This document shows positions 18,001-49,600 of a DNA stretch of 64,000 nt, piece after piece (within the stretch, counting starts at the first letter, position 1; each line of letters starts with the position of its first letter). The DNA comes from Ruditapes philippinarum. Its lineage: Eukaryota. The DNA is taken from positions 124,001 through 188,000 of the forward strand of contig NW_026865541.1 in NCBI RefSeq assembly GCF_026571515.1. Direction: 5' to 3'. A program made the position numbers.

Positions 18001-21000
18001 ATCAGTTTAGCACCTGGTCAGATTACAAGGTTCGTAGTAGGAAGGAATTGTATTACATGTATTTATCCTGCTCATATGTTAAAAATATAAAAGCAAAAAC
18101 AAATTATCTTTACAAATCTTGTAAATTGTAATGTAGTATTCAAACGTTTTCTCGTCTCCTTAGCATTCTTCAGCATGTCTCCATTTTTTTGTTAAAGCCT
18201 TAGAATTTAGTTCATTTTTCGGATGCATAAATTATGTGATCCTAAAAGATTTAGTGAAATTTGTAAAAAAAAAAGTTTCTTGAAATGTGATTAATATTGA
18301 TTAAATTATAACTTCTATTGTAACATTTTAATACTTACATATCACAGAATAATATTGGCAAAGTTTAGTTTATTTTCCAGAAACTGTTGAGTTGAGGAGA
18401 ATAATCTGGTCTTGGTTGGCGTTGGTGTTGAACAATTGTGGGAGAAGGAACAACAAGAAGAACAGGGGCACTGAAATTTTTAAGAAAGAAAGAACATGCT
18501 ATAAAATGTTTGTAATTGGCTATAACCAAGTAAGTTAACACCTTTACTTCGAGATAAAAGACAAATATTGAAAACGGTAATCAAATTAAACAAATTATCA
18601 ATGTATTAGTGGTGCAATAAAAAATCAATATTTAAAAAAAAAAACTTAAAAACACCATATTCTTGATTAGTGCATATAGTTACTTACAGATGGACATTCC
18701 AAGACCTCCGGCGGCCTTTGGTGCTGCTGGGACTGGAATGTATGCAGCCTGTGCCATTACTTTGCCGTAGCTAGATCCGTAGCTAGAACCGTAACCAGAG
18801 CCGTATCCAGCACCGTATCCACTGCCCATACTAGCACCGTAGCTAGGACCGTATCCACCGCCGATACCTCCGCTGATATGTCCGATACCGCCAACTGAAC
18901 CACCGCCAAATGAAGCGCCACCGAACGATGCACCGCCGAATCCGTCATCATTTCCCCATCCGTTGTCATCATTTCCCCATCCATTGTTGTTGTTCCAGTT
19001 ATTGAATCTGTCGTCGGCGAAAACCATTCCGACGACGGCGGTCAAAACGACGGTGACGAAAATTGTGATCTTCATGGTTAGGGTTCTGAAATTTTACAAA
19101 ATTTAAAATTTAGATAATTTTTTATCAAATGAACATGATATTACCAAATTATCATACAGAAAGAACAGAACCCAAGTTAGACAGACAACATAATAAGAAA
19201 AGCGGCGCGCATTGGTACAGGTTCAATGTGCAACAATGTTGAATATATTGATATATATTGAGTTGAATATATGCTTTTTACTTCACTCTTGTCGGTAATA
19301 AAGAACGAAAACTGGTATTAAAACTCAAATCAATTTCTCAAAAATATATCTATCTTTTCATCAGTCAGAAGGAAATTTAAAGTCATTGCTTATACTCCTT
19401 TCTATGGAATTACATGTTTATCAAAATCTAACAAAAACAAACAAAAATATATATATTTTTAAACGACAATAAAATTTAGAATAAATGTAAATGCTGAAAA
19501 AAATATAAAAAAAATATCCTTTTCCAACCATTATATTACAAATAAATTCGTATATAGAAATCAACAAAATGAATAAGATGTTGTTTCTAAATATGACTTT
19601 ATTAATGAAAATACTTTAATTATGCACACTACTTACGATGTTTTTGGCTTGACGTTCTTTGGCAGAAGTAATTTTAACACGGCATGTTCGAGCTTAAATA
19701 GTGAAAATTAACGTCGAACTTAAATCGACGTAACGTAACGTACCCGAAGCTTTCAGACAGCCGGACGTAGCGATATAACGATTACATCGTGTTGACAGAT
19801 TTGACACCCATGGCGTTTATTAATTTCAATACAGTGAAGTAAAGTCTGTCTGGTTATAATGTTAACATTAACCATTGTTGGGAATAAAGAAATGTCTTTA
19901 AAAAAAGTAAAACTAATGTAAACTGTACAAATTAGACTAGCACTCTCTGTTTCAAATCCACAAAGGCGTAATTTGCATAAAATATATCATACAATGTAGT
20001 ATGCCTAAATGGTTTTGCTGTGTTGGTTACAAAGTACATATATTGTGAGTTTGTGCCGACATAGTGCCTTCCGGCAGAAAACACAGAATTGTATGTTAAG
20101 ATGTTTTTGGAAAGAGTAAAATTATAAATGAACTGAAATAAAATATTGATTAAAAACATCACCCCCCCCCCCCCCAAAAAAAAAAAAAAAAAAAAAAGAA
20201 AAGAAAAAGAACAACAAAAAAGAACAACAACTGAAATTAATGTTACAATAAAATACAAAAGTATAACGTTTTATTTAAATTCTTTCATAACATAACTTTG
20301 TATCACGTGACTGATGATATGATTTAAACACATTTTATTGCTACTTTGTATGTCTACATCTGTATGATCATGCTAACACAATTGTAAAAATTGTAAAACT
20401 TACAACAGTAACAGGCGACTCTTTTCTGTAATATCTATCATACTAAATGACAATAACATTGTTACAACCAAAATGAATCTACTACAGAGCAGTTTGGATT
20501 TAGATTAAGATTTGCTAAATGACAATGAGCCTTTTCCATCAGATTTGCAAAATGATCAAACGCCCCTTAAAGAGATGGGCTAAAGCCCCTCTGTTAAATT
20601 TGCTAAATGAACATCCCCCAACCCCTTAATTAGGTGGGCAAATGTCCTTTAGCTAATTTAGCTAAATGATCAAACGCCCTTCCACACGGTGCATATCCAT
20701 ATCGGTACCCTCTTTGCGAAATCTGCTGAAACGGTACCCTCTCTGAACATGCACAGGTCATTCTCTGCTAAAAACAAACCAGCGATGGATACCAATCCAG
20801 TAAAATTTCATTGTAATAAGGAAAGGAGGTATGTCACGTAGAAAAGATGTATACCACGGAACACTAGGATATTTTATTTATGTGCTGATTTGTCATGTGC
20901 CCGATTTTCATGTCTTGCAACTTCACAATAAGCTACAAAAAATCGACATGTCTTGCTTCGCCCATCACCTCGACATATTTTTCGGGCTGAAATGAACCTG

Positions 21001-46602: not shown

Positions 46603-49600
46603 TGTGCGTGTGTGTGTGTGTTTTTTTTTTTTACTTTTGTAAAAGTTACTCATTGGCCATATATACTAGTAGCTGAACCGTCTCTTGCAAGAGTTATGTT
46701 CACTAACCATGGATTTTTGCCCAATACTTTGGCAAAAATAATTTGATGCAATTTCTTGTTTTTAGAATTTATTTATAAGTTTAATCCTTAAAGTGTTCAA
46801 AACATATAAATTTTTAGGCATTTGTTTACATTTAGTATGCTTTATGTTCTATGGAAATACCCCTATTTCCAGCAAAATTAGGAAAATTAACGTATTTTTG
46901 GTGTTGTAAACTAAAAATTAAAGTATCACCACAGTCAAGCCCCAACAAAATCATAACACCATTGTTTTGTTATATATCAAAGGCTTCAACTATATAAATA
47001 TAAAGTTGGGGCTTGCCTGTGCTCTATTCCAAAATAAGATTTTTATCTAATATCTAAACGTCATTTTCTGACATTTATTTCATTAAATGCAAACCATTGA
47101 GCATGTATACTGCACTCAACATTATTAATTTTTGGTCCAAGTTGTTGAAATATGATTTATAACATATATTTTAATATATAATTATTAATTACTAATAACT
47201 AATAATTATTAATAACAGTTATAATGCTTTGTTTATATTTTCCTATTTCACATTTTAAGCATCTCTTGTGCTTATAATTCATAATTATATAAAACACTAA
47301 CAACATGTTTGCCCTTTCTAAAGAAAAAAGATAATTATGAGCTTTTTAACTAAACCGATGAGAAAGGACGGAGTTTTTATACCAAATCTTACATGCTGAA
47401 TTTGACGAACTCAAACCGTGATTAAGAAATTGTTCAGAATGGTTTAATTATTACTTATTACGGAAGTGGCCGATTGATATTTATGAAAAGCTTCAAACGC
47501 CAAGCTATGACTACTTTACGAAAATGGTTTAACCTATTCAACCATTATCAAAATGAATGTATAAATAAGTCTGATTTGGATTTTTTTTTTCAGTTTTATT
47601 TTCTGTCCAACATAACAATAATAAATAACATGTACATATTTGTAGAACTGTTGCTGTCTGATCAAAATACATCTAGGCTGTGTGGTGATAATAGGAACAT
47701 CTTTATACTTAGAACCAGGTAAAATTCTGTAAAACAAATAATAGTGAAAATATTAATCAGTAAGTCCATGCCAATGCCAATAGAAGAAAAAAGTTTAAAA
47801 ACTTTGATACATTTCAAGATAAACAGAAGCCAAATTTTAAATGCCTAAATATATGTTAGATATTTGTTACTATAGAAAACATAAGATAGTAGCGAAACGT
47901 TTTTGAAAGGCATATCTTATGTATACATTTGTATTTAGAAAAAAAGGAGTTCATTTCATCGTCTACCAGATCGGATATGAATTATGCAAAAAGTAACATT
48001 CAAGTTTAATCTCTAATTCACTTGTTGCTATATATCAAACACCTGTTAATACACGATCATATAAAGTGTGAAGTCTTTAAAATAAAAATAAGAAATAAAT
48101 TTGCAGCAGCAGTGTATATTTATAATATAAATACTACAATTGTCCTATGTAAATTGCCGTTACAAACGTGCATTTAATTGAACATTTATACTTACTCATT
48201 ATAGTTTATTTTCCAGAAACTGTTGAGTTGATGAGAACAATCTGGTCTTGGTTGGCGTTGGTGTTGAACAATTGTGGGAGAAGGAACAACAAGAAGAACA
48301 GGGGCACTGAAATTGTCAAAAGTAATATGTATATGTTGCGTACTTGTACTTACATGTTTAAATTACTAGTAAAAATCATAGATATGTTAATACATGGCTA
48401 TGTGCGTTACTCAAAAAAGTGCCATGATGGCGGAATTCTGCGCAGAGAAGTAAATTGCATGCTTCAAAATTTTGAAACGGAACGTAATTAAGATTTTAAA
48501 AGAAGTGCATGCACATATATTTATTGAACAATAATTCTATCGTAATTATGAAGACTTACAGATGGACATGCCAAGACCTCCAGCGGCCTTTGGTGCAGCT
48601 GGAACTGGAATGTATGCAGCCTGTGCCATTCCTTTGCCGTAGCTAGATCCGTAGCTAGATCCGTAGCCCATACCGTATCCAGCACCGTATCCACTGCCGT
48701 ATCCAGCACCGTAGCTTGGACCGTATCCACCGCCGATACCTCCGCTGATATGTCCGATACCGCCAAGTGAAGCACCGCCAAATGAAGCGCCACCGAACGA
48801 TGCACCGCCGAACCCGTCATCATTTCCCCATCCGTTGTTGTCATTTCCCCATCCGTTGTTGTTGTTCCAGTTATTGAATCTTTCGTCGGCAAAGACCATT
48901 CCGACGACGGCGGTCAAAGCGACGGTGACGAAAATTGTAATCTTCATATTTATTCTGAAAATTAAAAATGATATTGATATATCTAAATATTTTTGTTGTA
49001 TACATGTAAAAAAGAGCGCTTTTGAGGCATAATATTCGTTTAATATTTTACTAGATAAAATGACAATTCTGTCATTTTAATGACAATATGATAGTTTCAA
49101 CTGCATTTGAATTTTTATTATATAAAAGAAAGCATTTTTTAAACGCAATTATTGATTATGTAACCTATCATATACAGTGTACTGATTTTCAAGGGAAAAA
49201 TCTTTTGAATTAAATACGAAATACTATTTAGAAAAGCTAAGTGGATGTTAATGTATTTAGTCAAAATTTCATTAACATTTTTTCTGTCTCTAATTTTTTT
49301 CAATGAATTTATGAAGAATTTTTTAAAATGTGAAAATATTAATATAAAAGTACTTACGATGTTTTTAGTTTGACTATCTGGAGCAGATGTGATTTTGATT
49401 TGAGTTGTTTCAATTTTTATAGCTGATACATGATGTATCTCGTGTTCCGGAAGTGATATAACAGTCTACCCATACCCTTCACATATCCGGACATGGTGGA
49501 TGGTTACAGCATAATTTGTTGTGTATTGACAGAGTTACACCTCGAGGGCATTTGAATTGAGTTTCAATTGAATTTTGAATTTCATCGCTCACCGAAAATA

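What the first reader, a model, noticed from the sequence alone, without database searches (positions are those of the whole stretch)
18370..48947. Mosaic paralogs: fixed exon length and patchwork gene conversion
Seen: the repetitive coding exon is exactly 388 nt in all five copies, although 12-nt modules are swapped (MGYG-SSYG versus SSYG-MGYG in copy 3). Relationships change along the gene. Promoters group 1+2 versus 3+4+5. Intron 1, intron 3 and the 3' flank group 3+4. Intron 2 is nearly identical in 1 and 3 (18471-18687 versus 35109-35353) but not visibly alignable in 4. In exon 3, two sites ~20 nt apart show all four combinations (N+IILL copy 1, S+IVLI copy 2, S+IILL copies 3/4, N+IVLI copy 5). 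Inference: ongoing interlocus conversion, with selection on exact block length as if it acted as a molecular ruler.
[Added by the scan's program, not by the reader: the finding's places include an assembly gap (unread letters, written N; its length is only estimated) at 38707 to 38848. Whether the letters on both sides are continuous or in frame is not known: test that first.]
Basis: partly seen in the sequence, partly recalled or inferred. Interest (0 to 1): 0.65.

Follow-up and report, generated by a model that had tools for sequence, protein, structure and literature searches.

The report
Clam glycine-tyrosine gene cluster, gene conversion
Five neighbouring copies of an uncharacterised Manila clam gene for a small glycine/tyrosine-rich protein keep their coding exons alike by copying pieces from one another, an ordinary process in gene families, and nothing shows that the equal exon length acts as a ruler.

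Summary
Five same-strand (minus) paralogs start at 19075, 28949, 35741, 41412 and 48947. Each has a 388-nt coding stretch in exon 2 with no indels, and copy 3 carries a 12-nt module shift. The window is Ruditapes philippinarum: copy 4 matches NCBI LOC132729478.

Evidence for interlocus gene conversion:
- Copy 3 shares promoter, intron 1, intron 3 and 3' flank with copy 4 (82-97%), but its whole intron 2 matches copy 1 (208/217).
- Exons are 92-96% identical (dS 0.09-0.15), while most introns align no better than shuffled sequence.
- Eight of the ten possible 2|3 splits occur in exon 2.

The patchwork inside the exons is only suggestive. PHI and fragment tests lose significance once clustered changes are counted as single events. 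"Ongoing" conversion is not shown.

The "molecular ruler" idea is not supported. In relatives from five heterodont genera the Gly/Tyr block spans 15-95 residues, while the C-terminal hydrophobic segment and tail are conserved.

The assembly gap at 38707-38848 is intergenic.

Verdict: a new example of a known process in an undescribed protein family. An assembly chimera cannot be excluded without long reads.

The parts
18339..19701 (-). Copy 1. TATA-like box at 19701. Exon 1 (5'UTR) ends at 19637. Intron 1 is 19086-19636. Exon 2 is 18688-19085, with the CDS starting at 19075. Intron 2 is 18471-18687. Exon 3 is 18339-18470, and the stop codon ends at 18370.
   Evidence: The splice frame is confirmed by database protein P0002. 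Exon 3 is 21 nt longer than in the other copies, and no exon-4 block was found.
28183..29263 (-). Copy 2. TATA-like box at 29263. Intron 1 is 28957-29200. Exon 2 is 28562-28956, with the ATG at 28949. Intron 2 is 28294-28561. Exon 3 is 28183-28293. The stop comes one codon early (GGA TAA), so the protein ends ...VSG.
   Evidence: No exon-4 block was found.
34197..36485 (-). Copy 3. TATA-like box at 36485. Intron 1 is 35749-36421. Exon 2 is 35354-35748, with the ATG at 35741. Intron 2 is 35109-35353. Exon 3 is 34998-35108. The conserved 3'UTR block (putative exon 4, with AATAAA) is 34197-34305.
39911..42048 (-). Copy 4. TATA-like box at 42048. Intron 1 is 41420-41984. Exon 2 is 41025-41419, with the ATG at 41412. 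Intron 2 is 40807-41024. Exon 3 is 40696-40806. The putative exon 4 is 39911-40019. Its exon translations match NCBI LOC132729478 (P0002).
47593..49422 (-). Copy 5. TATA-like box at 49422. Intron 1 is 48955-49357. Exon 2 is 48560-48954, with the ATG at 48947. Intron 2 is 48307-48559. Exon 3 is 48196-48306. The putative exon 4 is 47593-47701.
35109..35466 (-). Minimal copy-1-like tract inside the copy-4-like copy 3: the 3' end of exon 2 from nt 276, plus the whole of intron 2. The maximal extent is 35061-35492. The counterpart in copy 1 is 18471-18800.
   Evidence: Intron 2 c1-c3 matches at 208/217. The {1,3} splits lie at exon-2 nt 276-282 and 345, while the {1,2}|{3,4,5} splits end at nt 249. 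At exon-3 nt 49, copy 3 again differs from copy 1.
35442..35465 (-). The two 12-nt modules of copy 3 (SSYG-MGYG) that are shifted relative to copies 2, 4 and 5 (MGYG-SSYG).
   Evidence: The 12-nt tandem period is confirmed by Tandem Repeats Finder.
18396..18422 (-). Exon-3 sites in copy 1 coordinates: N/S at 18422, I/V at 18402 and L/I at 18396. Across the five copies they show all four combinations.
38707..38848 (.). Assembly gap of 142 N in the spacer between copy 4's 3' flank and copy 3's promoter. It lies outside every copy.

Best explanation
What it is. The region is a tandem array of five four-exon paralogs in the Manila clam (Ruditapes philippinarum). The exons are a 5'UTR exon, a 388-nt coding exon, a short exon holding the last 33 codons, and in three copies a 3'UTR exon.

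The protein. Each copy encodes a protein of about 160 residues with these parts:
- a signal peptide;
- an Asn/Trp/Asp-rich stretch;
- a disordered Gly/Ser/Tyr block built from 21-, 15- and 12-nt repeats;
- a YIPVP motif;
- a hydrophobic helix;
- a conserved tail ending ...DQIILLNST..G(K).

How the copies stay alike. The copies are old enough that most introns and spacers no longer align. Their exons stay 92-96% alike through interlocus (ectopic) gene conversion between neighbours. Tracts start and end inside the homologous exons, so homology stops within 10 nt of the splice sites. The exception is a tract that ran from exon 2 to exon 3 and carried the whole of intron 2 between copies 1 and 3. 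The most parsimonious direction is copy 1 into copy 3. Copies 3 and 4 are in addition a younger whole-unit duplication of about 2.8 kb.

Equal length. The equal coding length follows from this homogenisation plus ordinary selection against indels.

Shown versus inferred.
- Shown: the anatomy, the mosaic, the gap between dS and intron divergence, and the family's range.
- Inferred: conversion as the process, its direction, and the protein's role.

Protein role (low-confidence guess). It is a type I membrane-anchored or granule-sorted precursor with a Tyr-rich disordered ectodomain. The tail fits the acidic dileucine pattern [DE]xxxL[LI], which I recall from memory and did not test.
For: - Five same-strand copies with identical exon-intron positions.
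- The organism and the splice frame come from P0002, which is identical to copy 4's exon translations.
- Segment identities: intron 2 c1-c3 95.9%; intron 1 c3-c4 86.6%; intron 3 c3-c4 82%; core promoter c3-c4 62/64. All other intron pairs have z<=6.3 against shuffles.
- Copy 3 switches partner along its length.
- Outside pairs 3-4, 1-3 (intron 2) and 3/4-5 (end of intron 1), identity falls to chance beyond 10 nt from the exon edges.
- Pooled dS is 0.086-0.148 and dN/dS is 0.14-0.59. By comparison, JC distances are 0.147 and 0.196 for the c3-c4 introns and 0.043 for c1-c3 intron 2.
- Gly codons vary freely among GGA, GGT and GGC, which argues against strong synonymous constraint.
- Eight distinct 2|3 splits occur in exon 2. 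The simulated mean is 3.3-4.3, and 8 or more appeared in 6, 2, 2 and 0 of 500 simulations at the four rate settings.
- Copies 2, 4 and 5 share identical runs of 116-134 nt in the 3' third of exon 2, while copy 2 groups with copy 1 further 5'.
- Protein features: hydrophobic 19-residue windows score KD 1.8-2.4 in 9 of 9 relatives. AlphaFold2 gives helices only at residues 4-30 and 129-143, and the rest has pLDDT below 50.
- A molluscan precedent exists: probable conversion in tandem reflectin and tyrosinase clusters of Argonauta (PMC9635652, passages read).
Against: - With clustered changes collapsed, PHI (p=0.21-0.72), NSS (p=0.64) and the fragment test (pairwise p=0.018-0.029, global p=0.11-0.24) are not significant.
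- In the exons, copy 1 and copy 3 are no closer than other pairs (93.3%).
- The count of incompatible pairs after collapsing (35) is reached by 6-21% of simulations.
- The fitted gamma shape of 0.02 may itself absorb recombination, so the null tree is uncertain.
- No reads were available, so a chimeric or haplotype-mixed assembly is not excluded. The scaffold join between copies 3 and 4 is unverified.
- No expression data or protein-level evidence was seen.
- The TATA boxes, exon 1 and exon 4 are predicted from conservation and consensus only.
- The tail contains NxS/T sequons that would be meaningless if it is cytosolic. Only 5 of 9 relatives fit the strict [DE]xxxL[LI] pattern; the other 4 have L-V.
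Confidence: 0.7

Rival explanations
1. Assembly artefact. The mosaics arise from chimeric joining or polishing of paralogs, or of divergent haplotypes, in a highly heterozygous bivalve genome. Some 'copies' may be uncollapsed haplotigs placed in tandem.
For: A gap (38707-38848) shows that the scaffold was joined between copies 3 and 4. The c1-c3 intron-2 divergence of 4% is within the range I recall for bivalve allelic divergence; no call here supports that figure.
Against: No two copies are identical over more than 134 nt. The c1-like tract in copy 3 differs from copy 1 by 9 mismatches and 3 indels, so it is not the same reads used twice. Copies differ in unalignable introns and spacers. An NCBI gene model with exactly copy 4's protein exists, in a 90% cluster of 6 members.
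Confidence: 0.1
2. No conversion. The copies are ancient duplicates whose exons are held alike by purifying selection, including selection on synonymous sites. The conflicting sites are parallel mutations.
For: Homology ends at the exon edges. The near-star tree gives 3.3-4.3 distinct splits from homoplasy alone. Collapsed recombination tests are not significant.
Against: It cannot explain a complete intron shared by copies 1 and 3 inside a copy-4-like gene. dS of about 0.1 against unalignable introns would need very strong synonymous constraint, yet Gly codons vary among three synonyms. Eight splits are reached in at most 1.2% of simulations. Five-base cluster replacements are shared by subsets of copies.
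Confidence: 0.07
3. Exact-length selection, the reader's 'ruler'. The 388-nt block length is itself under selection, so compensating module gains and losses are kept.
For: Five of 5 copies have equal length despite 12-, 15- and 21-nt tandem repeats. Copy 3 shows a length-neutral module rearrangement. My own rough estimate uses the intron indel rate (38 indels per 192 substitutions, 6 of 38 in frame) and dS. It gives about 3.6 in-frame indels if length were free, so P(0) is about 0.03.
Against: The block length is 15-95 residues across 8 relatives and differs between two Mya paralogs (80 and 95). The distance from YIPVP to DQIIL, by contrast, stays at 35-42 residues. If in-frame indels are tolerated about as often as amino-acid changes (dN/dS about 0.3), the expectation is about 1.1 indels and P(0) is about 0.33 (inference). 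Conversion equalises length without selection. Copy 2 is one codon shorter at the C-terminus.
Confidence: 0.06

Closest known systems
Concerted evolution of tandem gene families by interlocus gene conversion. Examples recalled from memory and not seen in any call: silkmoth chorion genes, globins. Molluscan example read here: the tandem reflectin and tyrosinase clusters of Argonauta argo, PMC9635652 (passages).
   Same: Tandem same-strand paralogs. Coding regions are far more alike than introns and spacers. Relationships change along the gene. The products are repetitive and probably structural or highly expressed.
   Different: Only five copies, and a previously undescribed family. Homogenisation stops within 10 nt of the splice sites. 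One tract carries a whole intron. No expression data were seen here.
Gly/Tyr-rich molluscan shell-matrix proteins (shematrins, prismalin-14). These names are recalled from memory and come from no call.
   Same: A signal peptide followed by GYG-type low-complexity repeats.
   Different: No such protein appeared among the hits. This family has a conserved C-terminal hydrophobic helix and tail. Presence in shell and expression in mantle were not tested.
Sulphur globule protein (Pfam PF17228), and the glycine-rich antimicrobial peptides holotricin-3 and ctenidin. These are the automatic names given to relatives.
   Same: Gly-rich composition. The names were assigned to the Mercenaria and Dreissena relatives by their sources.
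   Different: The PF17228 scores of 20-21.6 bits fall below the cut-off of 26.7. The names reflect composition only. The papers found that use these names concern bacteria or arthropods (listings only).

Membership tests
Interlocus gene conversion / concerted evolution | Paralogs close together in the same genome | tested here: met
   Five copies on the minus strand, 5.7-9.9 kb apart.
Interlocus gene conversion / concerted evolution | Converted segments are much less diverged than the neutral flanks | tested here: met
   dS is 0.086-0.148, whereas 9 of 10 intron-2 pairs, 9 of 10 intron-1 pairs and 9 of 10 intron-3 pairs align near shuffle level.
Interlocus gene conversion / concerted evolution | Adjacent segments support different relationships (mosaic) | tested here: met
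   Copy 3 is copy-4-like in promoter, intron 1, intron 3 and flank, and copy-1-like in intron 2. Eight 2|3 splits occur in exon 2.
Interlocus gene conversion / concerted evolution | Statistically significant conversion fragments within the exons | tested here: inconclusive
   Uncollapsed: global p=0.0002-0.007 for pairs 4-5, 2-4 and 2-5, and PHI p<=0.0024. Collapsed: global p=0.11-0.24, and PHI p=0.21-0.72.
Interlocus gene conversion / concerted evolution | Paralogs cluster by species rather than by ortholog | not testable with these tools
   No eukaryotic DNA collection was available. Only single proteins from other genera were seen.
Pfam SGP (PF17228) | Score at or above the gathering cut-off | tested here: not met
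   20 and 21.6 bits against a cut-off of 26.7. There was no hit for 4 other relatives or for exon 2 alone.
Molecular ruler (length-selected block) | Block length conserved among paralogs and orthologs | tested here: not met
   Equal in 5 of 5 window copies, but 15-95 residues across 8 relatives.
Type I membrane protein with an acidic dileucine tail (pattern recalled from memory) | Signal peptide, one hydrophobic helix of about 19 residues, and [DE]xxxL[LI] in the tail | tested here: inconclusive
   KD19 is 1.8-2.4 in 9 of 9 relatives. The strict motif is present in 5 of 9 relatives and in 5 of 5 window copies. The AlphaFold2 helix at 129-143 is only 15 residues, with block pLDDT of about 72. 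Topology was not tested.
Gly/Tyr-rich shell-matrix proteins | Found in shell proteomes or expressed in mantle | not testable with these tools
   No expression or proteome data are held. Literature searches found nothing on this family.

The most novel reading that the evidence does not exclude
Homogenisation follows the transcript rather than the DNA. Identity of 92-96% holds in every exon, including the non-coding 3'UTR exon of copies 3, 4 and 5. It ends within 10 nt of the splice sites. This is what repair templated by spliced RNA or cDNA would give in short patches within single exons. Such a process would act alongside at least one ordinary DNA-templated tract, the one carrying intron 2 between copies 1 and 3.
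Probability: 0.04. Interest if true: 0.75.

Novelty: new member of a known kind. Interest (0 to 1): 0.3.

Why it matters
The cluster is a clean, small example of exon-limited concerted evolution in a bivalve, with one datable tract. It also flags an undescribed family restricted, as far as seen, to heterodont bivalves (Ruditapes, Mercenaria, Mactra, Mya, Dreissena). That family currently carries misleading automatic names: sulfur globule protein-like, holotricin-like, ctenidin-like.

For annotation, the conserved part of the family is the C-terminal hydrophobic segment and tail, not the Gly/Tyr block. For evolutionary work, paralog trees of this family built from exons will mislead. The finding changes no general principle.

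Tried and rejected
- PHI, NSS and a GENECONV-like run test on exon sites were significant only before clustered changes were collapsed.
- The count of incompatible site pairs was not above the simulations.
- A sensitive BLAST for the exon-4 block downstream of copies 1 and 2 found nothing better than E=0.004 over 32 nt.
- Pfam gave no family for exon 2. For the relatives it gave only sub-threshold SGP, plus a borderline Gram_pos_anchor match (20.4 bits against a cut-off of 20, 0 stretches) on the hydrophobic segment of the Mercenaria protein. I take that match as spurious in an animal.
- The ESM Atlas returned only 'hypothetical protein' clusters, with scores of 0.82-0.86.
- AlphaFold2 had a mean pLDDT of 48.9 and pTM of 0.18, so no fold search was run.
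- Literature searches on the family's automatic names, the tail motif, shell-matrix terms and clam gene conversion found nothing on this family (listings and abstract starts only, apart from passages of PMC9635652).
- No tRNA genes were found in the window.
- GPI anchoring was rejected because 17-23 polar residues follow the hydrophobic segment. This is my inference.

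
Full report
**Identity and anatomy.** The window has about 31% G+C and is eukaryotic. It showed no sign of being human. 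BLAST of the first copy against the window finds five copies in one orientation. On the minus strand, each copy opens with ATGAAG at 19075, 28949, 35741, 41412 or 48947.

I searched only the exon-2 translation (P0001, 129 residues). I did not build or search a joined exon model of the window. That search returned NCBI 'uncharacterized protein LOC132729478' of Ruditapes philippinarum (P0002, 162 residues). P0002 is 94% identical to copy 1 and letter-for-letter identical to copy 4's exon 2. Its last 33 residues equal copy 4's exon 3 read in the frame set by the split codon. That confirms the junction ...ATC T|GTAAGT ... TTTCAG|TG CCC.

From conservation and consensus, each gene has these elements:
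- a TATA-like box;
- a short 5'UTR exon ending in GTAAG;
- intron 1 (244-673 nt);
- exon 2 (7-10 nt of UTR plus 388 nt of coding sequence);
- intron 2 (217-268 nt);
- exon 3 (111 nt, or 132 nt in copy 1), with the stop codon about 10 nt (31 nt in copy 1) before a GTAAGTAT donor;
- in copies 3, 4 and 5 only, a 109-121-nt block with AATAAA that looks like a 3'UTR exon.

Copy 2 stops one codon early, ending VSG instead of VSGK.

**The gap.** The 142 N at 38707-38848 lie in AT-rich spacer, 2222 nt upstream of copy 3's TATA box and 1063 nt downstream of copy 4's last block. Every copy lies in uninterrupted sequence. The frames that cross the gap consist almost entirely of N. Whether the two sides are truly adjacent is unknown.

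**Checking the observation.** All items hold.
- The coding part of exon 2 is 388 nt in 5 of 5 copies, with 47 variable sites, no indel and 92.3-96.4% identity.
- Tandem Repeats Finder confirms internal periods of 12, 15 and 21 nt.
- Copy 3 has SSYG-MGYG where copies 2, 4 and 5 have MGYG-SSYG.
- Intron 2 of copies 1 and 3 matches at 208/217 positions with three gaps (13, 14 and 1 nt). The other nine pairs are indistinguishable from shuffled sequence, with z<=3.6.
- Copies 3 and 4 share intron 1 (86.6%), intron 3 (82%), the core promoter with exon 1 (62/64) and about 1.2 kb of 3' flank.
- Copy 5 is about 80% like both in the core promoter. Copies 1 and 2 share a different upstream motif but only 45/63 in the core.
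- The two exon-3 sites show all four combinations.

**Is it conversion?** Three results say yes.
1. Copy 3 changes partner along its length. It is copy-4-like up to exon 2, copy-1-like from about nt 250-276 of exon 2 through all of intron 2, and copy-4-like again from 16 nt before exon 3. Point mutation cannot produce that.
2. Pooled synonymous divergence is 0.086-0.148 for all ten pairs, yet most introns are unalignable. Identity drops to chance beyond 10 nt from the exon edges. For the younger duplicates 3 and 4, intron distances (0.147 and 0.196) are close to dS (0.117). The copy 1/3 intron distance is 0.043. Glycine codons vary among GGA, GGT and GGC, so strong synonymous constraint is unlikely.
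3. Exon 2 shows 8 of the 10 possible 2|3 splits. Simulations on the ML tree without recombination gave means of 3.3-4.3, and reached 8 in 6, 2, 2 and 0 of 500 runs at alpha 0.02, 0.2, 0.5 and 1.

Results against a fine patchwork must be stated as fully.
- PHI (p=0.0008-0.0024) and NSS (p=0.0044) owe their significance to runs of adjacent changes that are probably single events. After collapsing these, PHI gives p=0.21-0.72 and NSS p=0.64.
- The fragment test gives global p=0.0002-0.007 for pairs 4-5, 2-4 and 2-5. After collapsing it gives only pairwise p=0.018-0.029 and global p=0.11-0.24.
- The collapsed count of incompatible pairs (35) is reached by 6-21% of simulations.
- The exon-3 four-gamete pair needs just one recurrent transition.
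- With five sequences, the exon-internal mosaic is therefore suggestive only.
- 'Ongoing' is also unproven. The youngest tract is about 4% diverged.

**The ruler idea.** A profile search of 1.84 billion representatives and a second word-based search found relatives only in heterodont bivalves where a source gives a name: Mercenaria, Mactra, Mya and Dreissena.

In the eight relatives where both landmarks could be placed, the block between the signal peptide and YIPVP is 15, 20, 47, 58, 75, 80, 91 and 95 residues. Two Mya paralogs have 80 and 95. The YIPVP-to-DQIIL spacing is 35-42 residues in all nine proteins measured. The variable part of the family is therefore exactly the block proposed as a ruler.

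The copy-3 shift aligns 23/24 with copy 4 when offset by one 12-nt repeat and 19/24 in register. Its first module is copy-1-like (read). A short tract misaligned by one repeat gives this without changing the length.

I made a rough estimate from intron indels (38 per 192 substitutions, 6 of 38 in frame) and dS. It gives about 3.6 in-frame indels if length were entirely free. If indels are tolerated like amino-acid changes, it gives about 1.1. Zero observed indels is then unremarkable. This is my inference, not a tool result.

**The protein.**
- Pfam finds nothing above threshold. SGP scores 20-21.6 bits against a cut-off of 26.7.
- The source names 'sulfur globule protein CV1-like', 'holotricin-3-like' and 'ctenidin-3-like' reflect composition.
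- AlphaFold2 (mean pLDDT 48.9) gives only the signal helix and a helix at 129-143.
- The hydrophobic window scores KD 1.8-2.4 in 9 of 9 relatives.
- The tail fits [DE]xxxL[LI], a pattern recalled from memory, in all five window copies. The linked IILL/IVLI change preserves it. It fits in 5 of 9 relatives.
- My low-confidence reading is a membrane-anchored or granule-sorted precursor with a disordered Tyr-rich ectodomain.
- No paper on this family was found.

**What stayed unchecked.**
- Reads, alleles, orthologous loci and expression.
- The membership of the P0002 cluster.
- Supplementary files were not consulted.

**Verdict.** The cluster is real and carefully observed. The best explanation is ordinary interlocus gene conversion in a tandem family, with one well-defined tract. 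The length-ruler inference is not supported. Interest is modest.

Noticed in passing
window 5708-16414, minus strand: Exons of a quiescin-type sulfhydryl oxidase lie next to the cluster. Pfam matches are Thioredoxin at 16025-16414, FAD_SOX at 9437-9757 and 6644-6985 (the latter below the cut-off), and Evr1_Alr at 5708-6595.
   Followed up: partly
window 62313-62594, minus strand: An open frame with two calcium-binding EGF-like domains (EGF E=2e-11, EGF_CA E=5e-11). A further Cys-rich frame at 63012-63308 had no Pfam match.
   Followed up: partly
P0010 (53 residues, unnamed source): A fragment 90% identical to the query. It combines the Met at codon 83 seen only in copies 1 and 2 with an intron-2 read-through (CKLLYL) close to copy 4's (CKFLYL). 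It may be a further allele or paralog with another mosaic. Its source was not traced.
   Followed up: no
window 28196-28198 (copy 2): Copy 2 has GGA TAA TAA where the others have GGA AAA TAA, so its protein ends in Gly rather than Gly-Lys. Most relatives (7 of the 8 in alignment A2) also end in Gly.
   Followed up: partly
window 20684-21842 and 21863-22512: A 1.16-kb stretch that is 96.7% identical to its own reverse complement (a palindrome or foldback). It is followed directly by a 55-nt satellite of 11.8 copies.
   Followed up: no
window 24320-25563 and 25802-27077: Two direct repeats of about 1.25 kb, 94.8% identical and about 240 nt apart, between copies 1 and 2.
   Followed up: no
window 37131-38040 and 39444-39836: A G+C-richer array with 127-nt tandem and inverted units upstream of copy 3. 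A separate 109-nt repeat of 3.6 copies lies in copy 4's 3' flank; the aligned flank of copy 3 matches several of its units with a single stretch.
   Followed up: no
window 52719-53642 and 53643-54252: The second assembly gap (610 N) directly follows a tandem-repeat array, so it probably sits inside a satellite. It was not filled.
   Followed up: no
window 27688-27831 and 38362-38494: A 147-nt stretch, 75.5% identical, downstream of copy 2 and just left of the first gap. It may be a remnant of the duplicated unit or a repeat element.
   Followed up: no
P0004, P0005, P0016 (Mya arenaria): Three family members of Mya are reported with the same longest contig length (56,306,838 nt). The family may therefore be clustered in that species too.
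   Followed up: no
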